From a virus: a stretch of 64,000 bases of DNA. How positions within the stretch are numbered: position 1 is the stretch's first letter; each line of letters opens with the position of its first letter. The notes beneath the pieces were generated by a model that was given only the letters and a program-made list of their open reading frames with translations, had not been told where the DNA came from and ran no database searches. A program made the position numbers and the translations under genes. Below, piece after piece: positions 3,045-62,125 of the stretch. The DNA is taken from the IMG/VR virus record IMGVR_UViG_3300025093_000020; one strand, 5' to 3'.

Positions 3045-5577
3045 GTGGTCGAACGTAGACCCGAGTTGCCCCGTAGCGCTTGTTGACCTCGTAGGTTCGG
3101 ACCTTGTTTTCGGTCCTCTTCCAGCCGAGAATCTGCATGGCGCGGCCGATCTTCATCGCCTCAATATTGGGCATCTGACCCGGGCGCCCACCCATGACTT
3201 CTTCCCAGATCTGGGCGGTGCATGTTTCGTTCCGCACGACGCGAGTGCTCTCTTCCAGGTCTTCGAAGTCGTCGCCGACATGGCTGTCGAGCCAGACCTC
3301 GATCTTGCCTGCCAGCACGTCTTCCGGCGTCTCCACGCGCCGGCTTTCCTGGATGCTGGCAGCCTCGATCTGCGCGGCCTCGTCGGTCAGGTGCAGCGGC
3401 AGGTCGCCGTTGTGGCGGCGGCGCATCTCCCGGTAAAGGTGGAGGGCTTCCGCCCAGACCTGCAGCACCTCACCGGCCAGCCGCCGGTTGTCGATCTGCC
3501 CTTCCAGGTTGCACTTGATCGGCCAGAAGCGGCGGTTGCCGGTCTGGTCGCGCAGGTACTCGTCATCGTTGGTGGAGCCGAAGAAGATGCACTGCCGCGG
3601 GAACACCTGAACGCGCTTGGCATAGGCCAGACGCCCCTTGTCGTGGGTCCGGGTGACGAACGCCTTGAGGTCGTTGACCTCGGAGCGGTGCATGGTGCTC
3701 AGTTCCCCGAGTTCGAGGATCCACGAGCCCTGCATCACCTCGATCATCTGCTTGGTGTCTTTGATGTCGCCGGTCAGCTCGTCATACCAGTGGAGGGCCA
3801 GCACCTTGATGAAGGTCGACTTCCCCTTACCCTGCACGCCTTCGAGGATCGGCACGAAGTCGAACTTGTGCCCGGGCTCCATGATGCGGGTGACGGCGCC
3901 GACGAGCGTCAGCAGCGAGGCCTGGCGATGGTAGGGGGTATCCTCGCAGCCCAGGTATTCGATAAACAGCCGCTCGCAGCGCGGAATGCCGTCCCACGGC
4001 TGAGCCATGATGGTATCGCGCACCGGGTGGAATGAATGGGTCTGCGCGGCCGAGTCCACCGCGGCTTTCAAATCTCGATCGCTGATCTTGATACCATAGC
4101 CGCCAGCGGTCATCGGAGCTTCAAACATGATCCGCACGGCAATGTCATGACTGTCTGACCAGGCGTCACCATTGGTCGGGTCACCCAATTCCCAGAGGCG
4201 TCCCGTGAGATTGACCACCTCTTTCGCGTTCGAGTGCTCTTTCTTCTTCGCGCGGCCGGGGCGGCGCTTCAGCACCACCATCTGCGTGAATTCGTTGAAC
4301 GCTGCCGTTCCGTAGGTGCGCAGATCGTTCTTGAAGATGGTGGAGATGTTGTAGGATTGACTTTTAAGCTCACCTTCTTCGTTTCTTGCAAGCAAAACGT
4401 GAAAGTCTGAATTGCGTTGGATCGTCGGTTCAGAGCTGATGACCGGCAGCGTGATATTGGGCGTGTCCTCGGCTGTGATTGCTGCTGCGATCGCGTTCGA
4501 AGTCGGGCCGAGCAAATCATCGAAGGATACTTGTTTCACCGCTGCCGCGGTTGCGCCGAGGATGTCGTTCAGATTGTCGAAGCCGTCATAGTCATCCGCT
4601 TCAAGGGCGATTTCCTCTTTCAAGCGATGATCGAGGGCCGCGCGCCGCACAGTGAGAATGGTGATAGGATTGATGGAGTCTGCGCGGATGGACTTCCAGA
4701 TATAAGCTGCGTTCTCTTCGTCGTATTTCTTGGACTGCTCTGCCCATTCACACCAGATCGTGAAACCCTGATCGCTGCCACGGTATTGGTGATGCAGGGC
4801 CTGACCAACCGTCAGCCAAAGCGCGCGATCTTCGACCCATTCTTCTGGGAGATCATCGAGAAACGTAACGATCTCGTCATCATCGAAATCCTTTGGTTCC
4901 AGCGCGAGAATGGTTTCGAGGTCTTCTGGATCCAGTGCGCCGCGGCCTTCCTTTATCCTAACGCCATTCTCAATCAGCGCTTCCGCTGAGACGGTCATCA
5001 GGTAAGGCATGCTCAGTTCTAGCGGGCGCTCCCAAACATACGGTTCTCCGGTATCCGGGTGGATCGATGGCGGAAGGACGATATTCTTTCCGGTTCCACC
5101 GATGTCGATTTCCCAGTAACTCTTCTTCACCTCACGATTGAGCTTCGCGTCAAAAACCATGTCGAAGCCCGCAGAACGCGCGAGCTTTCGGCTTCCAAAG
5201 GGCTTCTCGCTCAGGAAATAAAGATGGCGGCTTTCGCCGCCTGATCCGCTGATGACGGAGGGTAGGGTTCTGGCGGTTGGTGCGATCTGCAGCAGCGTTT
5301 CCCAGGCCTCGTCCGCGAATTCAGTCCTGCGAATGTCGAGATCGATGACGTGGAGATAGAGGTTGCCGACCTTGGACCAGACACCAGGTCGAAAGCCTAT
5401 GTTGTATCCGGGGCGGTATTTGGAGAGCAGGAGCGCTTCATCATAGCGCTCGACCGTGCTCCAGTTCTTCTCGACTGGTCGTTTATTGCGGGTATTGAGC
5501 CAATGCAGCGATACACTCGCCCGCAAGAGCGGACGAACAGAATCCAGCACGCTTTGCAGCGATGGTGTCTCGGTCAT
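3031..5577 (-). CDS. Bifunctional primase-polymerase / VirE-D5-type helicase (848 aa)
   Basis: N-terminal AEP/Prim-Pol signatures: LHVIDLD, GGESRHLYF, PPSIHP. Central PriCT-like segment: WLTVGQALHH...WCEWA. C-terminal P-loop GVQGKGKST with ILELGE. Confidence 0.85.
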   Translation of the reverse strand: MTETPSLQSVLDSVRPLLRASVSLHWLNTRNKRPVEKNWSTVERYDEALLLSKYRPGYNIGFRPGVWSKVGNLYLHVIDLDIRRTEFADEAWETLLQIAPTARTLPSVISGSGGESRHLYFLSEKPFGSRKLARSAGFDMVFDAKLNREVKKSYWEIDIGGTGKNIVLPPSIHPDTGEPYVWERPLELSMPYLMTVSAEALIENGVRIKEGRGALDPEDLETILALEPKDFDDDEIVTFLDDLPEEWVEDRALWLTVGQALHHQYRGSDQGFTIWCEWAEQSKKYDEENAAYIWKSIRADSINPITILTVRRAALDHRLKEEIALEADDYDGFDNLNDILGATAAAVKQVSFDDLLGPTSNAIAAAITAEDTPNITLPVISSEPTIQRNSDFHVLLARNEEGELKSQSYNISTIFKNDLRTYGTAAFNEFTQMVVLKRRPGRAKKKEHSNAKEVVNLTGRLWELGDPTNGDAWSDSHDIAVRIMFEAPMTAGGYGIKISDRDLKAAVDSAAQTHSFHPVRDTIMAQPWDGIPRCERLFIEYLGCEDTPYHRQASLLTLVGAVTRIMEPGHKFDFVPILEGVQGKGKSTFIKVLALHWYDELTGDIKDTKQMIEVMQGSWILELGELSTMHRSEVNDLKAFVTRTHDKGRLAYAKRVQVFPRQCIFFGSTNDDEYLRDQTGNRRFWPIKCNLEGQIDNRRLAGEVLQVWAEALHLYREMRRRHNGDLPLHLTDEAAQIEAASIQESRRVETPEDVLAGKIEVWLDSHVGDDFEDLEESTRVVRNETCTAQIWEEVMGGRPGQMPNIEAMKIGRAMQILGWKRTENKVRTYEVNKRYGATRVYVRPQSND

Positions 5578-5592
5578 GATGCTGCTCCGGAA

Positions 5593-5955
5593 TCAGAGCG
5601 AGACGGTGTGCGGCAGCAGGTCTTCGCGGGTAAGTTTTCCGCAAGTCACGGCCTTTCCTTCGACTTTGACTTTTTTCGATAGATCCAGCAGCTTGTTCGC
5701 AGTTTTCACGGACATCCGCGCTTCAGGGTCCATCCATCGGTAGATGGTGTAGTGATGGACGCCCAGTTCGGCGGCAAGCACGCGGACCTGCACTTTGTCA
5801 CCGTCAACGAATCGCGGCGGCAGTTTCTTGGCCAGCGTCTTGTAGAGCGTTGTTTCATAGATGTTTTTCTCCGCGTTTTTCTTACGCGGTCGGCCCGTTC
5901 GGGTGGTTTTCGCGAGCGTGTTCATAGGCGTGTCCCGGAGCAGTTCAGGGTTCAT
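5593..5955 (-). CDS. HTH DNA-binding protein (120 aa), candidate early regulator
   Basis: The helix-turn-helix-like segment VRVLAAELGVHHYTIYRWM. It is the first gene of the leftward primase operon and is adjacent to the divergent operator region. Confidence 0.6.
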   Translation of the reverse strand: MNPELLRDTPMNTLAKTTRTGRPRKKNAEKNIYETTLYKTLAKKLPPRFVDGDKVQVRVLAAELGVHHYTIYRWMDPEARMSVKTANKLLDLSKKVKVEGKAVTCGKLTREDLLPHTVSL

Positions 5956-5990
5956 CGGTACTACGCGGCGGCGGAAGAATCAATTTGAAT

Positions 5991-6034
5991 GTGACACTCA
6001 CGTTCAAGGTTGCGGTGTCACGTTTAGTGTGATT
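5991..6034. promoter_or_regulatory. Divergent control region with operator-like dyads
   Basis: GTGACAC (5991-5997) and GTGTCAC (6015-6021) form an inverted repeat. A TCACGT half-site lies at 5998-6003. A full site TCACGT-TTA-GTGTGA lies at 6018-6032. The region sits between the divergent starts at 5955 (-) and 6081 (+). Confidence 0.55.
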
Positions 6035-6080
6035 ATCTCAAGGACGTTGTCAGAATCAAACAGCCGTATGGGAGACACCA

Positions 6081-6560
6081 ATGGCGCTCGAAGACGAAAT
6101 CAAATCCCTCAAGGAAACCGTGGCGCAACTGGTCGATGTGACCAAGGAACTGCTGGCCGTGCGCACCGAGGCAGTCGAAACCGTTCGCACCGCTGCCGCG
6201 CCGAAGGCCACTGGCGCCAAAGCGACGGCGACGGCGGCTGCGGAGACCAAGCCCGCGGCATCCAGCGCCGACGCCAGTACGATCAGTGTCGAGGTTGGCG
6301 AGAAGATGTCGGCAGCCATCGCCGGTTACATCGCCGGCGCGACCCGTGACGAAGAGCGCGCCGCGCGCAAAGACAAGATCAAGGCGCTGCTCCGTCACGA
6401 TCAGATCGTGCGTCCGGAATTCAAGGCCGTCACCGAGACCTATGACGCACTGCAGGTCAAGCCCGAGGCAGTTCAGCTCTTCTTCGATCAGATCGGGTTG
6501 CTGGTGCAACAGGGTGATCTGACCCAGCCCGCGGCTGCCAGCACGGCGCTGAATTTCTGA
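6081..6560 (+). CDS. hypothetical protein (159 aa), coiled-coil N-terminus and Ala/Thr-rich linker
   Basis: ORF track. First gene of the rightward operon. Confidence 0.55.
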   Translation: MALEDEIKSLKETVAQLVDVTKELLAVRTEAVETVRTAAAPKATGAKATATAAAETKPAASSADASTISVEVGEKMSAAIAGYIAGATRDEERAARKDKIKALLRHDQIVRPEFKAVTETYDALQVKPEAVQLFFDQIGLLVQQGDLTQPAAASTALNF

Positions 6561-7695: not shown

Positions 7696-7865
7696 TGGCC
7701 GTTCAGGTTGTGCTGCCGGATGAACGGTTGGCAACCTGCTCCTGCGGGGTGCAAGTCAGATTCCGCCCCGCAGACATCGACCTCTTTCACAACACCACTG
7801 CCGGGGTGAAAGAGGTCGATGAGTTCGTAACGTGCCCCTGTTGCGGAAAGAAGATCTTCGTCTGA
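7695..7865 (+). CDS. small zinc-ribbon protein (56 aa)
   Basis: Cys pairs CSCG...CPCCG. ATGA overlap with the H-NS-like gene stop. Confidence 0.5.
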   Translation: MAVQVVLPDERLATCSCGVQVRFRPADIDLFHNTTAGVKEVDEFVTCPCCGKKIFV

Positions 7866-9223
7866 TGGCACACGCAACGAAAACTCCCCCTTCATCTGCC
7901 GACCGTTGGTTCTATTGCACGGCCTCAGTCCTTCTGATCCTGCAATTGATGCGTAATGGCGAATTAAAGGAGAGCGATCTTGAACGCGACGAGGGTGTCA
8001 CCGAGGATGAGGTGCTTGAATTCGGCGGTTATGATGACGTTGTATTGGGCAATTCTATCTCAGACTCTTTCTCCGCCGAAGGGACTGTGCTTCATGAAGT
8101 TCGGGCCAGTTGTCTAGAATTCAACCTTGATCCCATGAACTTTGTCGGATTGGAAATGAGTGCTGATGGGCATTCGTTTCTGATTGATGACGATAAGGCC
8201 GATCGATTGGTTGCAGGCATAGATTGGATCCGGGAGCACACACGCGCGCCATACGTGGAAACCCGGGTTGATCTATCCGAATGGCTGCCGGAACAGTTCG
8301 GCACCTGCGATACTTTCTGGCTGAAACCTGTTCGCGGCAAGCGTGATATTTTCGATCTGTACGTCTCCGATTATAAGAACGGCATCGGTAGACCTGTCGA
8401 TGCCGAAGGGAACAAACAGCTTCGGATCTACGCGCTTGGCGCCTGGGTTTTCCTCGGAAAGCCGAATATCCGAAAGATCATCATCAACATCGATCAGCCG
8501 CGCGTCGGCGGCATGAAGTATGACGAGTTTGATTTCCAAGAATTGCTTGAGTTCGGCGAAGAATTGAAGCGAATTTGGGAACGCATCGAAAGCGGAAACG
8601 TTGAATTCGTGCCTACCATCAAAGGTTGTCAGTTCTGCCCGGTGAGGAAGACTGACGCAGGCTGCGCCGCCTATAACCGATGGCTGTTGCTGATGTGCGG
8701 GACCGCCTTCCTTGATCCGTCAGAACCCTATCCCAAATTCAAAGACCCTGAGCAGATCACCGCCGCGCAGAGGTACTATATCGTGCGGCACGCGGCAGCG
8801 TTGAAGTCCTGGCTGGAGAAGCTGTATGAGGCCTCTCTGCGCGCTGCTATGGCGGGTAACCCCGACCCTGGGTCCAAGGCGATCGAGGGTAACGGTGGCA
8901 AGCGCTACTTCACCAATGAAGAGCGCGCACAGCGCATCATGAAACACGCTCTTGGGGATCAGGCATTCAAGCCCCGCGAGTTGATCGGTTTCACGGAGCT
9001 TGACCGGCTGATGAAGCCCGGTCGCAAGAAGGATGGATTTCCGCGGCACTATGCGCTGCTGGAAAAGCTGGCAGCTCGGCCAAAGGGGAAGCCCAAATTG
9101 GTGTCAGCGGATCACCCGAAACCTGCACTGGAAACGGTGTCTACGGATGATTTCGAGGATCTACCGGAAAAAGGATCAGTGCGCCGCGTCGAGATTTCGA
9201 CCGACGATTTCGCAGACCTTTGA
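7865..9223 (+). CDS. PD-(D/E)XK Cas4/RecB-like nuclease (DUF2800-like, 452 aa)
   Basis: The N-terminal Cys (WFYCTAS) plus the C-terminal CQFCPVRKTDAGC cluster is typical of Cas4-type Fe-S nucleases. A DYK motif is present. It has the canonical position upstream of the SSB-like and polymerase genes. TGATG coupling at the start. Confidence 0.65.
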   Translation: MAHATKTPPSSADRWFYCTASVLLILQLMRNGELKESDLERDEGVTEDEVLEFGGYDDVVLGNSISDSFSAEGTVLHEVRASCLEFNLDPMNFVGLEMSADGHSFLIDDDKADRLVAGIDWIREHTRAPYVETRVDLSEWLPEQFGTCDTFWLKPVRGKRDIFDLYVSDYKNGIGRPVDAEGNKQLRIYALGAWVFLGKPNIRKIIINIDQPRVGGMKYDEFDFQELLEFGEELKRIWERIESGNVEFVPTIKGCQFCPVRKTDAGCAAYNRWLLLMCGTAFLDPSEPYPKFKDPEQITAAQRYYIVRHAAALKSWLEKLYEASLRAAMAGNPDPGSKAIEGNGGKRYFTNEERAQRIMKHALGDQAFKPRELIGFTELDRLMKPGRKKDGFPRHYALLEKLAARPKGKPKLVSADHPKPALETVSTDDFEDLPEKGSVRRVEISTDDFADL

Positions 9224-9247: not shown

Positions 9248-9928
9248 ATGGGAAAACTGATGGAACGCGACAACACGGGTCGCACGACAATGCTCACCCG
9301 GGTGCGCGCGTCTTTCGCGGAATCGTTGCAGGAGAAAAAGGCGTCGAAGGCCGATCCGACGAAACTGTCTCACGCGGCGAACTTCATCATCGAACGGGAT
9401 AGCCCTGATTTCGAGAGCAACAAGGCAGCGGTTGTCGCCGCGCTCCAGAATACCTGCAAGGAAGCCAAGCGGTCGGAAAACTGGTGGAAACAGCTTTTTG
9501 ACGACGATCCCAAGCAGCTTGCCTTCCGCAAAGGGGAACGCTTCAAGGACAAGAACGGCGAGATCTACAAGGGTTATGAGAACAATCTGATTGTCGTCGG
9601 GAAAGGGCCGAAAGCCGGCGCCGAGCGGCCGAGCAAACTGCTTGATCGCTACAAGCGTCCCATCGAAGTGAATGACATCAATGATGTGATTTACAACGGC
9701 ACCATGTGCGACGTGGTGATCTCCTGGTACTATACCGACAAACACGGCCCCGCGCGCATTACCTGCTCGATTGAGGCCGTGCGGTCGTGGCAGGAGGGGG
9801 AACGCCTCGGCGGCGGCGGTATCTACGTCGATGAGGACGATTTCGATACCATTGAAGGCGACGACGATGGGTTCGACTCGCCTCCCAAAACCCAGACCTC
9901 CAGCAGCACCAGCCTCCTGGATTTCTGA
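9248..9928 (+). CDS. phage ssDNA-binding protein candidate (DUF2815-like, 226 aa)
   Basis: Synteny (nuclease, this gene, polymerase) and an acidic aromatic tail DEDDFDTIEGDDDGFD...SLLDF. RBS AGGAGAG. Confidence 0.5.
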   Translation: MGKLMERDNTGRTTMLTRVRASFAESLQEKKASKADPTKLSHAANFIIERDSPDFESNKAAVVAALQNTCKEAKRSENWWKQLFDDDPKQLAFRKGERFKDKNGEIYKGYENNLIVVGKGPKAGAERPSKLLDRYKRPIEVNDINDVIYNGTMCDVVISWYYTDKHGPARITCSIEAVRSWQEGERLGGGGIYVDEDDFDTIEGDDDGFDSPPKTQTSSSTSLLDF

Positions 9929-12181: not shown

Positions 12182-12525
12182 TGAAAGTCCCTACGGATTT
12201 CGATTTTGGGCAGAGGGAACTGGAGGCGAACGAAGAGCTTGAGGCCGTGGCTTGGGCCGAGAACAACGGCTGGATCTCCAGGAAGCTCAGCTTTGAGGGG
12301 CGCCGCGGTGCGCCGGATCGGATGTTCGCGGGTCACGGCGAGCTTTTCATATGCGAATTCAAGAAGCTGTCGCGCCTGAACACCAAGCGCGGCGGCAAGT
12401 CGGGCGGCCAATCCAAGGAGGCGTTGAGGTTCGAGGCCGTGGGCGTACATGTGCCCACCTTCTACACAGCATCTAGTTGCATTGACTACCTGAAGCACAA
12501 GATGTCAAAGTCACTTTTAGTGTGA
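12181..12525 (+). CDS. VRR-NUC domain nuclease (114 aa)
   Basis: The PDRMF...ELFICEFKK (D...ExK) signature. ATGA overlap with the polymerase stop. Confidence 0.65.
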   Translation: MKVPTDFDFGQRELEANEELEAVAWAENNGWISRKLSFEGRRGAPDRMFAGHGELFICEFKKLSRLNTKRGGKSGGQSKEALRFEAVGVHVPTFYTASSCIDYLKHKMSKSLLV

Positions 12526-19578: not shown

Positions 19579-20378
19579 AGCGTGCTGATGGGAAGACCCG
19601 GATTACAGCCGAACGAATTCGTGCCGCCATGGCAAAGCGTTGGGCTGATCCCGAGTGGGCGATCATGTGGGAAGTCGGTGAAGGCACCGGAGCCGCCAGC
19701 GGCCGCTATGCTGACGCTGTGATGATGTCGCTTTGGCCGTCGCGCGGACTGGAACTCCATGGCGTTGAAATCAAGGTGAGCCGATCTGACTGGAGGCGCG
19801 AAGCAGCTGACCCCAGTAAGGCCGAAGCGATTGCGAAGTATTGTGACCGTTGGTGGATCCACACACCTCCTGGAATCGTGGATGATCTGTCCGACCTTCC
19901 GCCGGCGTGGGGTTTGCGTGAATTCGACGGCAAGAACTGGAACACGCGGCGAGAGGCCGAGAAGACCGAAGCGGAGCAGGTCACTCGCAGGTTTCTAGCC
20001 GCGATGTTGCGGCGTGCCGATGGGACGATGCGAGCATTGGCTGCTGAGGCTGCGAGCGATGGAATGGCGGCCGTGGTGGTGGAAGAAGAGAAGCTGCGCG
20101 CTGAATATGCTAAGCGGGTCGAAGATGCTGTGAAGCGCAAGACCTCCGAATTAGATGAGGTTCGGGCCAACCTCAAAGCCTTCGAATCCGGTTTCGGCAT
20201 CTCAGCCGCCCACTATGCTGACTTTGGTCGCATTGGCAAAGCGGCACGGGCCTTGGCGGATCTCGACAGCAAAGGATGGCCACCGCTTGCTGATCGCTTG
20301 CGCCGTGCCGCCAATGAAATCGACGCTTTGAGCGAATGCCGGTTTTCCCAAACTGATCTGACGGAGTTGTTGCAATGA
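19575..20378 (+). CDS. MmcB-like PD-(D/E)XK protein with coiled-coil C-terminus (267 aa)
   Basis: The YADAVMM...LHGVEIKVSRSDW (D...ExK) block is typical of the MmcB family. ATGA coupling at the start. Confidence 0.55.
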   Translation: MKRADGKTRITAERIRAAMAKRWADPEWAIMWEVGEGTGAASGRYADAVMMSLWPSRGLELHGVEIKVSRSDWRREAADPSKAEAIAKYCDRWWIHTPPGIVDDLSDLPPAWGLREFDGKNWNTRREAEKTEAEQVTRRFLAAMLRRADGTMRALAAEAASDGMAAVVVEEEKLRAEYAKRVEDAVKRKTSELDEVRANLKAFESGFGISAAHYADFGRIGKAARALADLDSKGWPPLADRLRRAANEIDALSECRFSQTDLTELLQ

Positions 20379-20854
20379 TCGTTGCAGGCACCGGGCACCG
20401 GCCCGTGAAACTTGGTGGCTATGATGAGGCCACCTTTGGCCGTCTGACCGCACTGGCCCGAGGCCGGTTGCAGGAATTGAAGCCTAAGAAGTTCATCAGC
20501 GGCATGGCGCTTGGGTGGGATCAGGCAGCGGCAACTGCTGCCCTAGATCTCCACATTCCCTTGATCGCGGCCGTTCCGTTCGATGGCTTTGAGGCGCGCT
20601 GGACTCACGCCCAACAAGATCGCTTCAGCCTGCTCTTGGATCAAGCCGACGAGGTTGAGACCTGCAGCCCATATCCCGGCCAGCGGGCTTACCAACTTCG
20701 CAACGAGTGGATGGTCGACCGGGCGAACCTGATGCTCGCGCTTTGGGATGGATCCTGGGGTGGCACGTTCAACTGCATCCGCTACGCGGAGAAGATGGGG
20801 CGGCCGGTCGAGAACCTTTGGGACCAGTGGGAAGCGGCAAGCCTGCTGGTATGA
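20375..20854 (+). CDS. YpsA/DUF1273-type SLOG domain protein (159 aa)
   Basis: VAGTGHRPVKLGG, ISGMALGWDQAAATAALDL and IAAVPFDGFEARW align with the YpsA blocks ITGYKPxELG, ISGxxLGVExWAAEAA and VITPF...W. Confidence 0.65.
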   Translation: MIVAGTGHRPVKLGGYDEATFGRLTALARGRLQELKPKKFISGMALGWDQAAATAALDLHIPLIAAVPFDGFEARWTHAQQDRFSLLLDQADEVETCSPYPGQRAYQLRNEWMVDRANLMLALWDGSWGGTFNCIRYAEKMGRPVENLWDQWEAASLLV

Positions 20855-21846: not shown

Positions 21847-23103
21847 GTGTCCCAGTCAGACCCCTTGTTTCCCACCCCGATGACGGTAAATCTCACGGTA
21901 GACGCAAATTTATACCGTGAGCCGCCCATGAGCCTTACCGATGCCGCCTGCCGTGCGGCCAAGCCCGCCGAGAAACCCCGCAAGCTGAGCGACAGCGGCG
22001 GGCTCTATCTCTTCGTCAGCCCCAGCGGCACGAAGACCTGGCGCCTGGACTATGCCTTCCAGGGCAAGCGCAAGACAGCATCCCTCGGCCGATACCCAGG
22101 TGTGAAGCTGGTGGAAGCCCGTGAGGAACGCGACCGCATGAAGGCGGAAGTCGCCGCCGGCCGTGACCCTATGCAACGTTATAACATAACATTTGAGAAG
22201 GTGGCGCGAGACTGGTTCGCTGCAAACCGCTCCAAGTGGAAGTCATCCTATTCGGAGCGCTTCTGGCGCCGGATCGAGCAGGACATTTTGACCAGTCTTG
22301 GTGACCGGGTGGTTAGCGAGGTCCAGCCACAGGAGATCCTGAAGCTGTTGCGGGAGATCGAGGAACGGGATGCTATCTACACGGCCAAGCGCATCTGCCA
22401 GATGGTCAGCACCATCTATCGCTTTGCGATCTCAGAGGGGCATGCTTCCAGCAACCCGGCTGAGAACCTGATGAGCGCGCTGAAGCCACTGCCGAAGCGC
22501 GAGCACCGGGCGGCCCTGGCTGAGAGCGATCTGCCTGAGTTCTTTCGCCGCCTGCGCGCCTATGACGGCGATGAGACGACAAAGCTTGGCCTCGCGATCG
22601 TGATGCACACCTTCGTGCGGACGAACGAGATCCGCTATGCCACCTGGTCAGAGATCGACGGTGACGTGTGGCGCATCGAGGGGGATCGGATGAAGATGGG
22701 CAAGACGCACCTGATCCCCCTAAGCCGCCAGGTGCAGGAACTGCTGGCGCAACTGCGGGAGCTGACCGGCCACGCGCCGTGGCTGCTTCCGGGCCGCGAT
22801 AGCAATCGTAAACCGGTCTCCGAAAACACCTTGCTTTATGCGCTGCGCAACATGGGGTATCATCGAACAGCAACCGTCCATGGTTTCCGGGGAACTGCGT
22901 CAACGATCCTGAACGAAAGCGGAAAGTGGAATTCAGACTGGATCGAGCGGCAGCTTGCGCACGTTCCCAAAGACCAAGTGCGATCAGCATACAATGCTGC
23001 GCAATGGATGGAGCAACGGCGTGAAATGATGCAGTGGTATAGCGACCTACTTGAAAGAAATGCAAAAGAGGATAAATTGAGCTTCAATAGCTTGTTGATG
23101 TGA
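21847..23103 (+). CDS. int: Tyrosine recombinase, P4-type phage integrase (418 aa)
   Basis: N-terminal DUF4102-like GLYLFVSPSGTKTWRLDY. Catalytic HGFRGTAST (HxxR) and LAHVPKDQVRSAYN (catalytic Tyr). Confidence 0.9.
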   Translation: MSQSDPLFPTPMTVNLTVDANLYREPPMSLTDAACRAAKPAEKPRKLSDSGGLYLFVSPSGTKTWRLDYAFQGKRKTASLGRYPGVKLVEAREERDRMKAEVAAGRDPMQRYNITFEKVARDWFAANRSKWKSSYSERFWRRIEQDILTSLGDRVVSEVQPQEILKLLREIEERDAIYTAKRICQMVSTIYRFAISEGHASSNPAENLMSALKPLPKREHRAALAESDLPEFFRRLRAYDGDETTKLGLAIVMHTFVRTNEIRYATWSEIDGDVWRIEGDRMKMGKTHLIPLSRQVQELLAQLRELTGHAPWLLPGRDSNRKPVSENTLLYALRNMGYHRTATVHGFRGTASTILNESGKWNSDWIERQLAHVPKDQVRSAYNAAQWMEQRREMMQWYSDLLERNAKEDKLSFNSLLM

Positions 23104-23847: not shown

Positions 23848-24036
23848 ATGGCTGAACTGACAAACGACCGATTTTTGCGCCTGAAACAAGTGGTTGAGAT
23901 CACGAGTCTCTCCAAGAGCGAAATTTACCGGCAGGTCAACGATGGCCGGTTTCCTAAGCAGCAGCGCCGATCGCACAAGGTGGCGGTGTGGCGGCAAAGC
24001 GAGGTCGAGGCTTGGATGCGAGACACCAATGCCTGA
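23848..24036 (+). CDS. alpA: AlpA-family HTH regulator / excisionase-like (62 aa)
   Basis: RFLRLKQVVEITSLSKSEIYRQVNDGRFPKQ...WRQSEVEAWM matches the AlpA/MerR-like excisionase signature. Confidence 0.8.
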   Translation: MAELTNDRFLRLKQVVEITSLSKSEIYRQVNDGRFPKQQRRSHKVAVWRQSEVEAWMRDTNA

Positions 24037-24778
24037 CTTCAATGACCTCTTGGGCGATGAGCCTCCGAAGAAGCCGTCGAAGTCGAAGCGCGCCCGCGGG
24101 CGCCCGTCGCGCGAGGCAATGCTTGAGCGCGACACCGAAGAGTTGGCTGCAGAGCAGGCGAGACTGGGCCTCACCGATAACAAGACGCCGCATTACAGCG
24201 AGTTCCGCAAGCCGGTCGGCATCACATTCTTGGCCGCCGTCATGGGCCGCCAGCCAAAGCAGATCGAGAAGCGCCTCGAAAAGTGCCCGGTTCATTCCTG
24301 GCACCTGGTCTCTGGCAAGCAGAAGCCGCTGTACGAGTTCATGGACGCCATGTCCTATCTGGTGCCGCCGCGGGGCAGCATCGAAGACTGGTTCGCCCAG
24401 CAGAACGCCGCCAGCTTGCCCCCCTACGTCAACAAGATGTGGTGGGACTCAGCGGCGCAGCGCAACCGGGTGATGCTCGATTCCAACGATCTTTGGCACA
24501 CGGATGATGTGCTGGTGCTGCTCGGTCGCGCCCACATGGCGATCAAGGAAGAATGTAAGATGTGGGTCGAGGAATTGCCTGAAAAGGAGATTCTGACCGA
24601 CAAACAATACGCCGCTCTTATCGACGCGCAGAACCGTCTGGTTCTGAACCTACGCAAGATCTTCATCGAGATGCCGCGTGAAACCCTGTCCATGACTGCT
24701 CACATTCAGAGCGAACTGGACGCCAGCGGCAGGGTGCCGAATGACGCAGATCGACCGAACGCTGACGACGAAGAGTGA
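24029..24778 (+). CDS. putative terminase small subunit (249 aa)
   Basis: It lies immediately upstream of, and overlaps, the gpA-type large terminase. Basic N-terminus KKPSKSKRARGRPSR. The call rests on position. Confidence 0.5.
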   Translation: MPDFNDLLGDEPPKKPSKSKRARGRPSREAMLERDTEELAAEQARLGLTDNKTPHYSEFRKPVGITFLAAVMGRQPKQIEKRLEKCPVHSWHLVSGKQKPLYEFMDAMSYLVPPRGSIEDWFAQQNAASLPPYVNKMWWDSAAQRNRVMLDSNDLWHTDDVLVLLGRAHMAIKEECKMWVEELPEKEILTDKQYAALIDAQNRLVLNLRKIFIEMPRETLSMTAHIQSELDASGRVPNDADRPNADDEE

Positions 24779-52932: not shown

Positions 52933-54354
52933 TTAAAGGAGAAGTTCGTTAAAGCTCATACTGGCTAATGTTTCGTTAACTTCCGGAAACCTTTGGTAAA
53001 GGAACTCCAGGTAACTCGGTTCGGCCTCCATTAAGACACATTCGAAACCTTCCCGACGAGCTGCCTCAGCGGTCGTGCCGCTGCCTGCGAATGGATCGAG
53101 GACAACGCCGCCGGGCGGGGTGATATGACGGATTAAATACTGCATCAGCGCGATAGGTTTTACCGTGGGATGCTTAGAACCGCCGCGATCCAGCTTACCC
53201 GCTTTGCTGTGGTAGAACAGGGGATTACCGCAGTCGGTGCCGATTTCACCAAGCGCGATTGCCGTCTCATAATCTTCATCGGTGAGCGGGAATTGGTGGA
53301 AGAAGCGCGCGGCCGAACCTTCGTCACCATAACCAACTTCGACGCGATCGTTCAGCCCAAGATCCCCAGCCATGGAATGACTCGTGGCAATCTTTCGGCG
53401 ATTGCCCGGTTTCCCTGACTTGCCGTTTGGAAACATCGCGACAACCTCGGACGAGCCGTCAAGAATCAGGTTTGCCGGGTGCCGACCATTGGCGTTTGGA
53501 AAGACCACTCGGCGATCAGCTTCTGTCGGAAAAATGTGTCCACCGTTACCACCATTGATCTTTTCTCGCATGTGAGGATTCAGTGCGAGGTTTGATCCAT
53601 CACCCACCGTCACATGCGGGACAAGGCAACCTTTGATGTGCACGGCCCCAAGACCATGCTTCAAAAGGTTCGCCGCGCCGGTCTTGGACTCAAACGGCTT
53701 CTGGCCGAGGTAGATCGGCTCAAGGGCTGGCTTCTGTGCTTGCGTACCATAGGCCCAGCCGCTCCATTCAGCGGCCTCAGCGGTGGCAGGCACGTATTCG
53801 CCGGGCTGGTATTCGCGCCCGTTGTCCTTGATCCAGGATCCGGTTGCGTGCTGATCGGCGCCGGGGATCATTCGCTTCACAGGGGCGCCGGTCGGCACCA
53901 CCTCACCCTTCTTCCCGAAGTGCTTGTCAATGGCTTTGTCGGCAGCGTGGGCCTTTGGAAAGCCTTGGCCGAACACCCAGCCGTGCATCGGGTGCATGAT
54001 GAACCCGGCCAGCTCCATGGCGCACGCCTGCCAGTGGCCCGTGCGGCTACCGCTGAACGCAAAGACATAGCCGCCGGGCAACAGGATGTCGTAGATCAGC
54101 GCCCAGAACTCCGGATCCCGCTCAATGCCGGTCGCATCCCACTTGGTGCCCATGAAGCCACCCGACAGACGCGCGAAGCTGCCGTCATTGTTCTCGGTTC
54201 GAGCTGGGGCGCTACCCTCTTTCCCGAAGCGCTTCTGCACGCTGACGAGGCCGTAAGGCGGATCGGTGACCACGGAGTGAACCCGGCGACCTTCTGCGAT
54301 CATTCGCCGCAAACTTTCCCGGTTATCTCCCGGGATAATTGATAGTGTGGACAC
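52933..54354 (-). CDS. beta-class DNA methyltransferase (N6-adenine or N4-cytosine, 473 aa)
   Basis: Motif IV VVTDPPYG near the N-terminus and motif I VVLDPFAGSGTTAEAA near the C-terminus, which is the beta-class order. The two motifs are separated by an unusually long region. The C-terminus is SFNELLL. Confidence 0.85.
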   Translation of the reverse strand: MSTLSIIPGDNRESLRRMIAEGRRVHSVVTDPPYGLVSVQKRFGKEGSAPARTENNDGSFARLSGGFMGTKWDATGIERDPEFWALIYDILLPGGYVFAFSGSRTGHWQACAMELAGFIMHPMHGWVFGQGFPKAHAADKAIDKHFGKKGEVVPTGAPVKRMIPGADQHATGSWIKDNGREYQPGEYVPATAEAAEWSGWAYGTQAQKPALEPIYLGQKPFESKTGAANLLKHGLGAVHIKGCLVPHVTVGDGSNLALNPHMREKINGGNGGHIFPTEADRRVVFPNANGRHPANLILDGSSEVVAMFPNGKSGKPGNRRKIATSHSMAGDLGLNDRVEVGYGDEGSAARFFHQFPLTDEDYETAIALGEIGTDCGNPLFYHSKAGKLDRGGSKHPTVKPIALMQYLIRHITPPGGVVLDPFAGSGTTAEAARREGFECVLMEAEPSYLEFLYQRFPEVNETLASMSFNELLL

Positions 54355-56818: not shown

Positions 56819-57013
56819 TCACACCAAAAGCGCCGTGAAATTCGTCGTCTTCACCGGGTATTGGTGTTCAGTCGTAAACTTGCGTTCAGCGGATGCCATT
56901 GCTGAAATGGTGTTTTCGCGCATGTCACCAATGGAAAAGAAAGCGCCATTGCGCGCTTCACAGATCCATGTGTTTGGCGCCACCAATCGAACAACGAACA
57001 GCGACGGCTTCAT
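56819..57013 (-). CDS. small early protein (64 aa) ending NFTALLV
   Basis: ORF track. ATGA coupling. Confidence 0.5.
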   Translation of the reverse strand: MKPSLFVVRLVAPNTWICEARNGAFFSIGDMRENTISAMASAERKFTTEHQYPVKTTNFTALLV

Positions 57014-57276
57014 ACCAGCAACTCCGTGAAACTGGCTTTCTCAGGTTCAGAGATTTCGCCCAGGCAGGAAGTCAGGGCTTCTGCCAAGGTGGGCTTCCAC
57101 TTTCCGCGCTTCCATTCCAACTGCATTTCGTTGGATTTGATCGACACCTGCCACATGCCGCGCTCTGTCTCGCGTGTCGGTTCATCGCGCATGGTGTAAA
57201 CCGGCGACGAGATCGACAGCTTTTCAATTCCCTGCGTCAGCAGGAAATCTTCAATCTGCTCGACTGTGAGGTTCAT
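57010..57276 (-). CDS. small early protein (88 aa) ending SFTELLV
   Basis: ORF track. Paralogous to the next gene: KWKPTLAEAL against KWAATLDEAF, and the same tail. Confidence 0.55.
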   Translation of the reverse strand: MNLTVEQIEDFLLTQGIEKLSISSPVYTMRDEPTRETERGMWQVSIKSNEMQLEWKRGKWKPTLAEALTSCLGEISEPEKASFTELLV

Positions 57277-57557
57277 ACCAGGAGATCGGTGAAGCTGGGC
57301 TTCTGGGCCGCCTCCGCGGGCAGATCGTCAAAGTCGGTAGCGCGCACCTTGGCAGGTGCAGCCTTCAGCGCGGCCTCAAACGCTTCGTCCAGTGTAGCCG
57401 CCCATTTGTGGACGGGGATGCACTCGCACAGCGCGCCCGGGCTGCTGTAGTAGATCGACGCCAACGCCTTCCCATTGGACCCAACGCCAAACGTGATCGA
57501 CGTGATTTCGTGCTCTGCAATGATCGAGGCCAATGGGGCGAGCGTCAGCATGCTCAC
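57273..57557 (-). CDS. small early protein (94 aa, GTG start) ending SFTDLLV
   Basis: ORF track. GTGA overlap. It also carries TDFDDLPAE. Confidence 0.55.
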   Translation of the reverse strand: MSMLTLAPLASIIAEHEITSITFGVGSNGKALASIYYSSPGALCECIPVHKWAATLDEAFEAALKAAPAKVRATDFDDLPAEAAQKPSFTDLLV

Positions 57558-57901
57558 ACCAGCAGGTCGAAGGTCGCAGGGGCGGGCGAGGGGGCAGCGG
57601 GCTCGTCCAGGAGCAACAGGACCTTGGGCGCCTCAGCAGCGGGGCTCACCTGCCGCGCGCCGTTCTCGTCCTTGTAGGGCACAGAATCTGCAGCCGGCAC
57701 GTCATAGGTCAGCAGACCCGTGTCCATGTTCAAGCTGAGGCCGGTCTCATACTTCTCGCCCTCGGGGAAGATCTCCTTGAGCACTTCGAGCAGCGGCCCT
57801 TTCATCAGGGACAGCGTGACCGGCCGTCCGGCCAGTGTGGTCTGCAGGGTGATGACGCCCTTGGTCTTGCGGATGCCGCCGCGCAGCGCAGAAAGTTGCA
57901 T
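57554..57901 (-). CDS. small early protein (115 aa) ending TFDLLV
   Basis: ORF track. A Pro/Ala-rich linker precedes the tail. The leader TTTCACTTTTATGGAGA lies upstream. Confidence 0.55.
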   Translation of the reverse strand: MQLSALRGGIRKTKGVITLQTTLAGRPVTLSLMKGPLLEVLKEIFPEGEKYETGLSLNMDTGLLTYDVPAADSVPYKDENGARQVSPAAEAPKVLLLLDEPAAPSPAPATFDLLV

Positions 57902-58498: not shown

Positions 58499-58683
58499 CA
58501 GTCGCACTCCCAATGGTAACCTGTCTTGCCGACGCATTGGACGGCAAATCCTCTTTCGAAGGCCTCTTTCATCAGGGTGTGGTGGGTATTGAGGCGTGTC
58601 AGAAACGGCGGTATTGTGCAGATAGATAGAAAAACAACTACTGCAAATGTCTCTTTCCAGATTTGGATTTGATTTTCGGTCAT
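58498..58683 (-). CDS. small TM protein (61 aa)
   Basis: TM segment FAVVVFLSICTIPPFL. ATGA overlaps at both ends. Confidence 0.45.
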   Translation of the reverse strand: MTENQIQIWKETFAVVVFLSICTIPPFLTRLNTHHTLMKEAFERGFAVQCVGKTGYHWECD

Positions 58684-61303: not shown

Positions 61304-61306
61304 GAT

Positions 61307-61531
61307 TTATTCCTTCTGCTCCTTTGCGTATTCGATAATGATCAAACCCGTGATGATGAAAACCAAACCAACTGGCACGATCCAAAGTCCTATCAGAATG
61401 AGGAATACCATGAACAAGAGTGTGCAGAGACCCGCGATGGCAGTGGTGATTCCGACAAAGAACGTAACAAAGAAATTGCGATCAAAATCGAAAGCCCAAG
61501 CGTAAAATTTTCTGATGTGTTTCACGATCAA
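61307..61531 (-). CDS. two-TM membrane protein (74 aa)
   Basis: FFVTFFVGITTAIAGLCTLLFMVFLILIGLWIVPVGLVFIITGLIII. Confidence 0.5.
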   Translation of the reverse strand: MIVKHIRKFYAWAFDFDRNFFVTFFVGITTAIAGLCTLLFMVFLILIGLWIVPVGLVFIITGLIIIEYAKEQKE

Positions 61532-61755
61532 GATCCATCTATGATGTTTCTATAGCCCACCGTAATTCGGCAGGACGGCTTGAGGTAGATGTCCTTTTCC
61601 TTTGGCGCGTGATTGCGGTGCCATTGTCGTGCATCTGCATGAGCTTGCGCCACAGTCTCAGATGAACTGCAGATCCCAATGTAACCTAGCCGACCTTCGT
61701 CCCAATAAAGCATCACGCTCCACGGGACTTTTCCATGTAATGTCAGAATGACCAT
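61528..61755 (-). CDS. hypothetical protein (75 aa)
   Basis: ATG at 61755 overlaps the stop of the upstream small ORF by 1 nt. In frame with track ORF 61528..61860. Confidence 0.45.
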   Translation of the reverse strand: MVILTLHGKVPWSVMLYWDEGRLGYIGICSSSETVAQAHADARQWHRNHAPKEKDIYLKPSCRITVGYRNIIDGS

Positions 61756-61919
61756 CAGAAGAAGATCCACTTGAGAACGCGATACAGGCCGTAGAGCATC
61801 CCAGTGCCGATGGCCGCAGCAGGCAGGATCCACCACCCCGAAATGAAATAGGGATCGCACTCACGGCCTTTCGCCGCCTTATAGTCAGCGGTCAATTCCT
61901 CGGGTGTCATTTCATTCAT
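61755..61919 (-). CDS. small TM protein (54 aa), not in the ORF track
   Basis: Hand translation gives MNEMTPEELTADYKAAKGRECDPYFISGWWILPAAAIGTGMLYGLYRVLKWIFF. ATGA overlap with the stop at 61916. Confidence 0.45.
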   Translation of the reverse strand: MNEMTPEELTADYKAAKGRECDPYFISGWWILPAAAIGTGMLYGLYRVLKWIFF

Positions 61920-62125
61920 GATAGGAGATCCTTGAAGCTGGTGGCGATGGCGGCCGATTGCTTGCAGAATTCCTCGACCTGGCGATTCAAGGCTTCGATC
62001 TGCCGGTTCGATTGAAGCAAGCGGAGGGTGAGTTCTTCATTCTGGGAGCGCAATTTCCCGTTGCGCTCCCGAAGCTCCAGCAGTTCATTCTGCAGGCGGC
62101 CGATTTTCAGATTGGCGGCATCCAT
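61916..62125 (-). CDS. coiled-coil protein (69 aa) ending SFKDLLS
   Basis: ORF track. Confidence 0.5.
   Translation of the reverse strand: MDAANLKIGRLQNELLELRERNGKLRSQNEELTLRLLQSNRQIEALNRQVEEFCKQSAAIATSFKDLLS

What the first reader, a model, noticed from the sequence alone, without database searches (positions are those of the whole stretch)
4510..61939. A terminal short linear motif [S/D/T/N]-F-x-[D/E/S]-L-L recurs on about 12 unrelated proteins across the phage proteome
C-terminal copies:
- integrase ends LSFNSLLM (23080-23100)
- beta-class MTase ends MSFNELLL (52936-52956)
- ORF 61916 ends TSFKDLLS
- ORFs 57010, 57273, 57554 and 56819 end SFTELLV, SFTDLLV, TFDLLV and NFTALLV

N-terminal copies:
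- portal starts MSASFNDLLS
- putative small terminase starts MPDFNDLLG
- protease/scaffold starts MPLDFNPVLM

Internal and weaker copies:
- the primase has VSFDDLLG (4510-4527) in its inter-domain linker
- the nuclease has DFQELLE
- weaker versions are SFTERL (CI-like), LTELLQ (MmcB-like) and SLLDF (SSB-like)

Synonymous codons differ between copies (ttg, ctc, ctg and ctt for Leu; ttc and ttt for Phe). Conservation is therefore at the peptide level, not the DNA level.

A rough estimate with typical residue frequencies expects F-x-[DE]-L-L about once in a proteome of this size. I count 8 strict hits, 6 of them within 10 residues of a terminus. This looks like a docking or degron tag for a common partner. 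Candidates are a host hub or protease, or a phage scaffold or capsid-targeting factor. I do not know of a described equivalent.
Basis: partly seen in the sequence, partly recalled or inferred. Interest (0 to 1): 0.8.

Follow-up and report, generated by a model that had tools for sequence, protein, structure and literature searches.

The report
Shared terminal docking tag on phage proteins
About fifteen unrelated proteins of this phage carry the same six-residue acidic, leucine-rich peptide at an end or in a flexible linker; relatives keep it at the same places, so it looks like an undescribed address tag for one unidentified common partner.

Summary
F.[DE]LL occurs 8 times against 0.65 expected, and 6 copies are terminal against 0.07 expected. 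Eleven of 87 genes end in L-L-x-stop, against 5 of 474 non-coding ORFs. Codons differ between copies, so conservation is at the peptide level.

The tag recurs at the same positions in relatives:
- 107 of 120 portal homologues carry it at the N-terminus.
- 59 of 120 integrase homologues carry it at the C-terminus.
- About half of the 150 best TerS family representatives carry it at the N-terminus.
- The primase linker holds one to three copies.

The usual form is D-L-[ST]-[DE]-L-L-G. This phage has switched L to F in about ten copies at once. Salmonella phage Chi carries a different shared tail, [DE]n-E-V-COOH, at orthologous positions. An unrelated Rhodobacter phage carries none.

I read it as a short linear docking motif for one co-evolving partner. 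The closest analogues are the T7 gp2.5/gp4 acidic tails, the bacterial SSB C-terminal tip and sliding-clamp-binding motifs. The partner is unidentified, and host and phage origin are about equally likely.

I found no description of the tag in the searchable literature.

The parts
23077..23100 (+). C-terminal tag LSFNSLLM of the tyrosine integrase (21880-23103)
   Evidence: 59 of 120 Int homologues end in the tag, and positions -7 to -2 are conserved. AF2 gives a short low-confidence helix at 402-406.
52936..52959 (-). C-terminal tag MSFNELLL of the N6/N4 DNA methyltransferase (52933-54303)
   Evidence: Orthologues end NETLLV (RcCWillis) and DIAALLA (Ruegeria V18).
24032..24055 (+). N-terminal tag (M)PDFNDLLG of the small terminase (DUF1441; 24029-24778)
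   Evidence: About half of the 150 best TerS representatives start with [DE][DE]-phi-x-[DE]-L-[LI]-G.
27301..27324 (+). N-terminal tag ASFNDLLS of the lambda-family portal (27295-28962)
   Evidence: 107 of 120 portal homologues carry (T)DL[ST][DEH]LLG within the first 24 residues. It corresponds in position to the cleaved lambda gpB leader, MKTPTIPTLLGPDG.
4507..4530 (-). Internal tag VSFDDLLG in the disordered linker between the PriCT-2 and VapE domains of the primase (3031-5577)
   Evidence: RcCWillis has NLDDLLD at this place. V18 has three SIDDLLGG copies plus a C-terminal copy.
4555..4575 (-). Second, L-type tag NLNDILG in the same primase linker
20352..20375 (+). C-terminal tag TDLTELLQ (canonical form) of a 267-aa protein with no Pfam match (19575-20378)
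   Evidence: The relative L019 ends TDLTDLLR. No Pfam hit.
61919..61942 (-). C-terminal tag TSFKDLLS of a 69-aa early protein (61916-62125)
57013..57036 (-). C-terminal tag ASFTELLV of an 88-aa early protein (57010-57276)
   Evidence: The RcCWillis orthologue ends DEELLV.
57276..57299 (-). C-terminal tag PSFTDLLV of a 92-aa early protein (57273-57551)
57557..57577 (-). C-terminal tag ATFDLLV of a 115-aa early protein (57554-57901)
   Evidence: The RcCWillis orthologue ends GLDDLLI.
56822..56845 (-). C-terminal tag TNFTALLV of a 64-aa early protein (56819-57013)
   Evidence: The RcCWillis orthologue ends TDLSDLFI.
20834..20851 (+). Weaker C-terminal copy AASLLV on the YpsA/SLOG-like protein (20375-20854)
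   Evidence: The Mesorhizobium homologue ends DLSSLLG.
12505..12522 (+). Weaker C-terminal copy SKSLLV on the VRR-NUC-like protein (12163-12525)
   Evidence: The Mesorhizobium homologue ends KTKMLLV.
9905..9925 (+). Class-A tail STSLLDF at the end of the disordered acidic tail of the Enc34/T7 gp2.5-type SSB (9248-9928)
   Evidence: Pfam Enc34_ssDNA-bd. Homologues end D[FL]D[FLI], LLD[FL] or DDLLG, some with tandem DLLG repeats. AF2 gives pLDDT below 50 for residues 211-226.
9197..9220 (+). Class-A tail STDDFADL of the DUF2800 / PD-(D/E)XK nuclease (7832-9223)
   Evidence: Orthologues end DDFDDLD, DVDDLLG (V18) and DDDDEV (Chi).
6540..6557 (+). Class-A tail STALNF of a conserved 159-aa replication-module protein (6081-6560)
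   Evidence: Homologues end TALDI, DDDDILG (V18) and GEEDDV (Chi).

Best explanation
The recurring peptide is a genuine short linear interaction motif. It is six to seven residues long, acidic and amphipathic. The family consensus is D-[LF]-[STN]-[DE]-L-L-x, and in this phage it is mostly S-F-x-[DE]-L-L-x.

It is displayed in three settings:
- At the extreme C-terminus, always with exactly one residue after LL.
- Within the first ~10 residues of the N-terminus.
- In disordered inter-domain linkers.

It decorates proteins of integration (Int), DNA methylation, replication and repair (primase linker, VRR-NUC-like, SLOG-like) and packaging (TerS, portal). It also decorates five small early proteins.

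**Shown.** The enrichment, the peptide-level selection, the positional conservation across a large clade and the within-genome homogeneity.

**Inferred.** The three hydrophobic side chains sit at positions i, i+3 and i+4, on one face of a short helix. Together with the flanking acidic residues they would dock into a basic and hydrophobic groove of one common partner. That would tether all carriers to the same hub. Multivalent copies in the primase linker and in some SSB tails would raise avidity.

**Not shown.** The identity of the partner. It must coexist with very different gene sets and must co-evolve with the tag. A conserved alphaproteobacterial host protein and a phage protein are about equally likely. 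The only phage families seen in every tagged element where the packaging region could be read are the gpA-type large terminase and the lambda-type portal.
For: **Enrichment and terminal bias.**

**Peptide-level selection.** Synonymous sites and Ser codon families differ between copies. Many tagged stop codons are not overlapped by a downstream start.

**Orthologous conservation.**
- RcCWillis, Ruegeria V18 and the IMG/VR and prophage loci carry the tag on the same proteins.
- Portals: 107 of 120.
- Integrases: 59 of 120. Positions D-7, L-6, [ST]-5 and D-4 carry high information, while linker positions -9 to -17 carry about 1 bit.
- TerS family.

**Typical SLiM behaviour.**
- Position is flexible. 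TerS is tagged at the C-terminus in Chi and at the N-terminus in alphaproteobacterial phages. The primase is tagged at the C-terminus in Chi and V18 and internally here.
- Tandem copies occur.
- The tags lie in low-confidence regions of the AF2 models.

**Evidence for a single partner.**
- One Mesorhizobium prophage has almost the same heptapeptide, DL[ST]DLLG, on Int, TerS and portal.
- RcCWillis has TDLSDL[FL] on three unrelated proteins.
- About 10 of 12 copies in this window have F where 43 of 52 Int homologues and about 100 of 107 portals have L.
- Chi carries a different shared tail, [DE]n-E-V, on 10 proteins including orthologues.
- The unrelated R. capsulatus phage RcBaka has none.
Against: - No partner was identified, and no binding was tested or modelled.
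- AF2 shows only that the tags are short helices of low confidence or are disordered.
- A universal phage polymerase hub is unlikely. The polymerase here is not BLAST-detectably related to those of Chi or V18, although tags persist.
- Small islands keep the Int tag without SSB, polymerase or SNF2 genes.
- Two tail classes coexist in some genomes, so there may be more than one partner.
- Some weak copies may be fold elements: GLLV of the GapR-like protein and AAGPLV of the protein downstream of the capsid gene.
- Gene starts come from my own heuristic caller. C-termini are fixed by stop codons, and N-termini agree with GenBank calls in relatives.
Confidence: 0.7

Rival explanations
1. The tag is a degradation or remodelling signal read by a host AAA+ machine such as ClpXP, Lon or FtsH. 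It would time the removal or disassembly of integration, replication and packaging complexes.
For: - ClpX recognition signals are known to lie at either terminus, and MuA and lambda O are phage precedents (from my own knowledge).
- C-terminal copies end in non-polar L-L-[GSAV] with a fixed distance to the carboxylate.
- The lambda gpB leader that holds PTLLG is removed during maturation.
Against: - The strongly acidic context is unlike the known ClpX, Lon or FtsH degrons I recall.
- Internal and tandem copies in the primase linker and in SSB tails suit docking rather than a degron.
- Structural and stoichiometric proteins (portal, SSB) are unlikely to be targets for destruction.
- Chi's [DE]n-E-V tails resemble stabilising rather than destabilising C-termini.
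Confidence: 0.1
2. There is no common partner. The tails are intramolecular DNA mimics, acidic with a hydrophobic anchor. Each would fold back on its own protein's DNA-binding surface, as shown for the T7 gp2.5 tail. Their similarity would then be convergence.
For: - Nearly all carriers bind DNA.
- The Enc34 SSB tail inserts into a neighbour's groove in the crystal and modulates DNA selectivity (PMC5686142).
- The tails are acidic and disordered.
Against: - Convergence does not explain near-identical heptapeptides on unrelated proteins of one genome.
- It does not explain the concerted L-to-F switch here.
- The portal and the small early proteins have no known DNA-binding groove.
- AF2 does not dock the tails in cis.
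Confidence: 0.1
3. The pattern reflects a nucleotide-level signal at gene junctions. Candidates are a ribosome-binding site or translational coupling element of the downstream gene, or a recombination boundary sequence.
For: - Many tagged genes end in an ATGA or GTGA stop/start overlap, which fixes the last codon as V, S or Q.
- In two cases, NNG-GAG upstream of LL forms GGAG eight bases before the next start.
- Unrelated phages show a small excess of RBS-encoded C-termini. RcBaka gives 10 pairs against 3.6 and lambda 8 against 1.8.
Against: - Third codon positions are near random at 0.39 identity. Leu uses CTN and TTR, and Ser uses both codon families.
- N-terminal and internal copies exist.
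- Tagged stops in RcCWillis, V18 and Chi are often followed by 10-30 non-coding bases.
- The control effect produces clusters of 3 proteins, against 9-13 in the tagged genomes.
Confidence: 0.02
4. The tag targets proteins into the procapsid for co-injection, in the manner of the T4 capsid-targeting sequence.
For: - The portal carries it at an N-terminus that is cleaved in lambda.
- The protein encoded just downstream of the capsid gene carries a tag in several relatives.
Against: - TerS is not a virion component.
- Int, SSB, primase and nuclease are not known to be packaged.
- The tag is not followed by a recognisable protease site.
- Small islands keep only the Int copy.
Confidence: 0.03

Closest known systems
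Acidic C-terminal tails of T7 gp2.5 (SSB) and gp4 (helicase-primase), which bind gp5 polymerase
   Same: - Disordered acidic tails end in a hydrophobic anchor.
- They are shared by several replisome proteins of one phage.
- They sit on the same kind of SSB. 9248-9928 belongs to the Enc34 / T7 gp2.5-type family (PMC5686142).
- The class-A tails here (LLDF, ALNF, DDFADL) look like this.
   Different: - T7 has two carriers, both C-terminal and both replisomal.
- Here there are about 15 carriers, including integrase, methyltransferase, terminase and portal.
- Copies also lie at N-termini and inside linkers.
- The polymerase is not conserved across tagged phages.
Bacterial SSB C-terminal tip (DDDIPF) and its interactome
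   Same: An acidic stretch followed by hydrophobic residues at the end of a disordered linker acts as a hub contact. The V18 tails DDDDILG and DDDLLG resemble it closely.
   Different: The topology is inverted. In bacteria one protein carries the tip and many proteins bind it. Here many proteins carry the tag and presumably one protein binds it.
Sliding-clamp-binding motifs: bacterial QL[SD]LF and QLxLxL, the T4 gp45-binding tails of gp43, gp33 and gp55, and the PIP box
   Same: - One short motif on many unrelated DNA-transacting proteins.
- It is found at C-termini, N-termini and internal linkers.
- It couples different DNA transactions to one hub.
- The spacing phi(i), phi(i+3), phi(i+4) equals that of the PIP box.
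- A phage precedent exists: Mu MuC uses the host clamp (PMC12867686).
   Different: - There is no Q.
- The spacing differs from bacterial clamp-binding motifs.
- The context is strongly acidic.
- The carriers include portal and TerS.
- I found no Pfam or PHROG match to a clamp among the window proteins scanned, and only part of the proteome was scanned.
Lambda gpB (portal) N-terminal leader peptide
   Same: The portals are homologous, and the N-terminal position is the same, with phi-x-x-L-L-G (IPTLLG). The leader is annotated as a 22-residue peptide removed on maturation.
   Different: In lambda, to my knowledge, no other protein is known to carry the peptide, and the function of the leader is unknown.
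Eukaryotic and viral acidic LxxLL helical motifs, for example the E6-binding peptide LDDLLG
   Same: The sequence is nearly identical (PMC5760104). An amphipathic helix docks in a hydrophobic pocket.
   Different: This is purely a structural analogy. The organisms and partners are unrelated.

Membership tests
T7 gp2.5 / Enc34-type SSB acidic C-terminal tail | An OB-fold SSB of the DUF2815 / gp2.5 type followed by a disordered acidic C-terminal segment | tested here: met
   9248-9928 hits Pfam Enc34_ssDNA-bd at 2.4e-13. AF2 models the OB fold confidently and gives residues 211-226 pLDDT below 50. This applies only to the SSB copy.
T7 gp2.5 / Enc34-type SSB acidic C-terminal tail | The motif acts only as a free C-terminus, with the terminal aromatic residue and carboxylate essential | tested here: not met
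   The main (class-B) tag also occurs at the N-termini of TerS and portal and inside the primase linker.
T7 gp2.5 / Enc34-type SSB acidic C-terminal tail | The tail binds the phage DNA polymerase and helicase | not testable with these tools
The polymerase is not conserved among tagged phages.
Bacterial beta-clamp-binding motif | Sequence pattern Q-L-[SD]-L-F or Q-L-x-L-x-L | tested here: not met
   The consensus D-[LF]-[ST]-[DE]-L-L-x has no Q, and its hydrophobic spacing is i, i+3, i+4.
Bacterial beta-clamp-binding motif | Binding to the hydrophobic cleft of DnaN | not testable with these tools
   This needs AF-Multimer or peptide-binding assays.
PIP box (PCNA-interacting peptide) | Q-x-x-[LIM]-x-x-[FY]-[FY] | tested here: not met
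   Only the spacing matches. Q and the aromatic pair are absent.
ClpX C-terminal recognition motif 1 (ssrA-like LAA-COOH) | A non-polar tripeptide at the free C-terminus that is sufficient for degradation | tested here: inconclusive
   C-terminal copies end in L-L-[GSAVLMQ]. However, the context is acidic and non-terminal copies exist. Stability was not testable.
T4 capsid-targeting sequence | An N-terminal ~10-residue peptide followed by a prohead-protease L/I-x-E cleavage site on packaged proteins | tested here: not met
   Most copies are C-terminal and sit on non-virion proteins. No cleavage consensus follows the N-terminal copies.
ParB N-terminal ParA-stimulating peptide (GLGRGL[SD]ALLG) | An L-x-x-L-L-G core preceded by basic Arg/Lys residues | tested here: not met
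   The core matches, but the flanks are acidic (D/E/T) and not basic. The ParB consensus is recalled from memory.

The most novel reading that the evidence does not exclude
A whole clade of lambda-head / Chi-like phages, prophages and capsid-encoding islands would wire its integration, methylation, replication and packaging proteins to one hub through a single terminal address tag. The tag would co-evolve genome-wide with that hub:
- D-L-S-D-L-L-G in most alphaproteobacterial members.
- S-F-N-D-L-L in this phage.
- [DE]n-E-V in enterobacterial Chi.

This would be a viral tool-belt system with an inverted SSB-tip logic and a partner that is still unknown.
Probability: 0.5. Interest if true: 0.85.

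Novelty: new variant of a known kind. Interest (0 to 1): 0.75.

Why it matters
If one hub reads this tag, then a single interaction coordinates integration and excision, DNA methylation, replication and genome packaging in a widespread group of temperate phages and islands. These include Rhodobacter, Ruegeria, Paracoccus and Mesorhizobium elements, and the well-known Chi-like Salmonella phages carry a different shared tail at orthologous positions.

Consequences if true:
- Dozens of proteins of unknown function that carry the tag would get a handle.
- There would be a simple sequence rule for finding members of the network.
- The portable 7-mer could be used for recruitment or for competitive inhibition.
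- It would be a clear case of concerted SLiM and hub co-evolution inside a viral genome.
- It could explain the long-unexplained cleaved N-terminal leader of the lambda portal.

Tried and rejected
- **Nucleotide-level explanations.** I tested RBS, ATGA coupling and boundary sequences by codon-position identity and by looking downstream of tagged stops. I rejected them.
- **Paralogy of the four small tandem genes.** It cannot explain the copies on Int, MTase, TerS, portal and primase.
- **Phage-encoded clamp or other known peptide-binding hub.** Pfam and PHROG scans of 40 window proteins found none. There is a BRCT-domain protein (58680-59900), a GapR-like protein and an H-NS-like protein. The BRCT-domain protein has no BLAST match in RcCWillis, V18 or Chi, and neither it nor the H-NS-like protein is common to all the tagged elements examined.
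- **Phage polymerase as the T7-style hub.** This is weakened. The polymerase here is unrelated by BLAST to those of Chi and V18, and small islands lack it.
- **Literature.** String searches for the peptides and for shared phage tails found only eukaryotic LxxLL work and single-protein SSB-tail studies. The Chi genome paper and the Enc34 SSB paper do not mention shared tails.
- **DNA pattern scan of IMG/VR for DL[ST]DLLG-stop.** It returned almost only spurious short ORFs.
- **Genome-contig scan with TerL.** It gave a single prophage.
- **AF2 of Int and SSB.** The models show that the tags are not confidently docked in cis. They cannot address binding in trans.
I rejected the nuclease internal copy and the protease N-terminus, and I consider the CI-like C-terminus doubtful.

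Full report
**What the window is.** My own codon-usage gene caller gives 87 genes. The window is syntenic with Rhodobacter phage RcCWillis (Casjensviridae, cluster RcD) at only about 72% nucleotide identity in the large terminase. Its modules are as follows:
- A PrimPol-PriCT2-VapE primase, a DUF2800 nuclease, an Enc34 / T7 gp2.5-type SSB, a divergent polymerase, a ribonucleotide reductase and an SNF2 helicase.
- A CI-like repressor, a P4-type tyrosine integrase and an AlpA-like excisionase.
- A lambda-type packaging and head module: DUF1441 TerS, gpA-type TerL, gpW, portal, S49 protease, decoration protein and capsid protein.
- Tail and lysis genes.
- A leftward early operon with an N6/N4 methyltransferase, ThyX, a GapR-like protein and many small ORFs.

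The closest relatives are marine metagenome scaffolds and a Paracoccus prophage.

- F.[DE]LL occurs 8 times against 0.65 in 500 within-protein shuffles (maximum 4). Six copies lie within 12 residues of a terminus, against 0.07 expected.
- Eleven of 87 genes have LL at positions -3 and -2, always with exactly one residue before the stop. Only 5 of 474 non-coding ORFs of the same DNA do.
- A test that assumes no motif counted protein pairs sharing at least 3 of their last 4 residues. It gives 33 pairs against 3.5 for random internal 4-mers. One cluster holds 13 proteins.

**Conservation is at the peptide level.**
- Across 11 copies, pairwise nucleotide identity is 0.60, 0.73 and 0.39 at codon positions 1, 2 and 3.
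- Leu is encoded by CTT, CTC, CTG, CTA and TTG. Ser is encoded by both codon families.
- The last residue is often fixed by an ATGA or GTGA stop/start overlap. In two genes NNG-GAG forms a GGAG for the next gene.
- That cannot explain the N-terminal and internal copies.
- It also cannot explain tagged stops in relatives that are followed by 10-30 non-coding bases.
- RBS-encoded C-termini do give a small background signal in unrelated phages. RcBaka gives 10 pairs against 3.6 and lambda 8 against 1.8. Their clusters hold about three proteins, against 9-13 here.

**Relatives keep the tag.**
- RcCWillis has TerS MTTDLSDLFS, portal ..TDTDLSDLLG, gp58 ..TDLSDLFI*, gp61 ..LDDLLI*, gp60 ..DEELLV*, Int ..EPTLLV*, two methylases ..ETLLV* and ..DGLIV*, an exonuclease ..VDLLV* and the excisionase ..GLLV*.
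- IMG/VR contigs and a Plastorhodobacter prophage show the same pattern.
- Ruegeria phage V18 has ..DDLLG* or ..DLLA* on the SSB, nuclease, primase, methylase, the protein after the capsid gene and several small proteins. It has MSDDLSIDDLLGG on TerS and MLDKESLDLLG on the portal.
- Of 120 portal homologues (53-100% identity), 107 start with (T)DL[ST][DEH]LLG.
- Of 120 integrase homologues (47-100% identity), 59 end in the tag. It is appended after the conserved WWSDYLD end of the catalytic domain. D-7, L/F-6, S/T-5 and D-4 are strongly conserved, while the linker at -9 to -17 carries about 1 bit.
- About half of the best 150 TerS cluster representatives, drawn from 1.84 billion proteins, start with M-x(1-8)-[DE][DE]-phi-x-[DE]-L-[LI]-G.
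- The primase linker holds two copies here, one in RcCWillis and three in V18.
- Some SSB tails hold tandem DLLG repeats.

**Evidence for one partner.** Copies within one genome resemble each other more than they resemble their orthologues.
- A Mesorhizobium prophage has DLTDLLG on Int, DLSDLLG on TerS and DLTDLLG on the portal.
- RcCWillis has TDLSDL[FL] three times.
- In this window about ten copies have F at the first hydrophobic position. At that position 43 of 52 integrases and about 100 of 107 portals have L. This is a concerted switch.
- Salmonella phage Chi, a distant member with an orthologous primase, nuclease, SSB, TerS and post-capsid protein, carries a different shared tail. It is [DE]n-E-V-COOH, on ten proteins. 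It is encoded mostly by GAA GTN, which is not a Shine-Dalgarno sequence.
- RcBaka, an unrelated phage of the same host as RcCWillis, has no tag.

- The nuclease internal DFQELLE is a conserved fold element, present even in Chi.
- The protease N-terminus DFNPVLM aligns with a family motif that is also present in lambda gpC.
- The CI-like ..SFTERL* is a family-conserved C-terminus with a basic residue, and its status is unclear.
- 'LTELLQ' is the canonical TDLTELLQ.
- GLLV* of the GapR-like protein aligns with the end of the GapR domain.
- A second tail class exists. It has the form acid-phi-acid-phi-COOH, and it occurs on the SSB (SLLDF), the 6081-6560 protein (TALNF) and the nuclease (DDFADL).
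- The two classes are clearly separate in Mesorhizobium and Manganibacter prophages, which have DDFDF against DLTALLA. They are merged into DDLLG in V18.

**Mechanism.**
- Shown: a short, acidic, leucine-rich peptide lies at protein ends or in disordered linkers. AF2 gives the Int tail pLDDT of about 57 as a five-residue helix, and the SSB tail below 50. The peptide is under purifying selection and co-varies within genomes.
- Inferred: an amphipathic mini-helix with hydrophobic residues at i, i+3 and i+4 and acidic flanks docks into a basic and hydrophobic groove of a common hub.
- The nearest precedents are the T7 gp2.5/gp4 tails, the bacterial SSB tip and sliding-clamp motifs, including the T4 gp45-binding tails. 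These likewise sit at termini or linkers of many proteins and couple DNA transactions.
- The tag fails the sequence definitions of bacterial clamp-binding motifs, the PIP box, the ParB N-peptide and the T4 capsid-targeting signal.

**Who is the hub?**
- A T7-style polymerase hub is unlikely to be universal. The polymerases differ.
- Small Int-PrimPol-TerS-TerL-portal-capsid islands keep the Int tag without SSB, polymerase or SNF2.
- The gpA-type TerL and the lambda-type portal are the only phage families seen in every tagged element where the packaging region could be read.
- In lambda, TerL contacts TerS, the portal and gpFI (from my own knowledge). A role with Int or the methylases has no precedent.
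- A conserved alphaproteobacterial host protein fits the breadth of elements. In that case the concerted L-to-F switch would have to reflect a host shift.
- I therefore leave host against phage at about even odds.
- The homologous lambda portal has IPTLLG in its 22-residue cleaved leader. This suggests that the portal copy is ancient and acts before maturation.

**Novelty.** Searches of the paper library found nothing on shared tails in Chi-like or Rhodobacter phages. I class the finding as a new variant of a known kind, namely terminal acidic-hydrophobic docking tails. Its scope is unusual, and the partner is unknown.

Noticed in passing
window 1-183 and 2173-2251: The window opens inside a 9-bp tandem repeat, (CTGGTGCTG) x20, which reads LLV in one frame. 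An 8-bp repeat, (CTGCTGCC) x10, lies at 2173-2251. Both are probably non-coding, and the ORF at 4-297 is likely spurious or truncated.
   Followed up: partly
window 17442-19129 (repeat at 18855-18896): The C5 cytosine methyltransferase gene is split into two ORFs by a 17-bp direct duplication (GCCGTTCGCCGTCTGAT x2.5). Deleting one copy in silico restores a single 556-aa ORF with the canonical RRLMPVECERLQGFPD motif. This is either a frameshift pseudogene or a repeat-mediated on/off switch.
   Followed up: yes
L017 (Salmonella phage Chi, JX094499) e.g. 22171-24756, 26077-27417, 27472-28068, 31972-32541, 39436-39729: Ten unrelated Chi proteins end in [DE]n-E-V-COOH. They are the primase, the DUF2800 nuclease, the SSB, TerS, RdgC, the protein after the capsid gene and several unknowns. 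The largest C-terminal 4-mer cluster has 11 of 67 proteins. Neither the Chi genome paper nor the Enc34 SSB paper mentions this.
   Followed up: partly
window 18887-19129, 19126-19578, 10145-12181, 20851-21672: A second recurrent C-terminal pattern is W-[MIL]-x-x-A-A/P-stop: HLWMTAA, WIWMVAA, STWMQVA and LFWLTAP. Polymerase homologues in relatives also end AMWAMAA, AWLLAA and MLIALAA. It is unexplained.
   Followed up: no
window 57932-58195 and 7216-7695: The phage encodes two nucleoid-associated protein homologues. One is GapR-like (Pfam GapR_DNA-bd, 3e-26). The other has an H-NS C-terminal DNA-binding domain (1e-14). The V18 GapR homologue carries the tag at its N-terminus, MSGLDDLFG.
   Followed up: partly
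window 58680-59900: A 406-aa protein has a single BRCT domain at residues 257-322 and no other recognisable domain. BRCT is a peptide- and DNA-binding module. The protein has no BLAST match in RcCWillis, V18 or Chi, so it is an unlikely hub.
   Followed up: partly
window 16714-17373 (C-terminus 17350-17370): The CI-like HTH protein ends ..ITSFTERL. Homologues end VTSFSEKF, IRTFSERL, IRTFAERL, IESFKDRI and VESFSVKL. This is a family-conserved C-terminus that resembles the tag, but it has a basic residue in place of the first Leu of the LL pair.
   Followed up: partly
L025, L061, L062 (Gemmobacter, Rhizobiales and Paracoccaceae genomes): These small integrated elements encode Int, TerL (gpA), a lambda-type portal and an S78 protease-capsid fusion. 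L025 and L062 also carry a PriCT2-AAA_25 primase-like protein and a TerS-like protein. No tail genes lie within the flanks read. They resemble capsid-forming phage-inducible islands, and their integrases keep the tag.
   Followed up: partly
L060 (lambda) 2836-2901 and 4418-5737: The cleaved 22-residue leader of the lambda portal contains IPTLLG. The shared C-terminus of gpC and Nu3 contains AVNDLLNTPV. Both are tag-like peptides in the classical head-assembly proteins.
   Followed up: no
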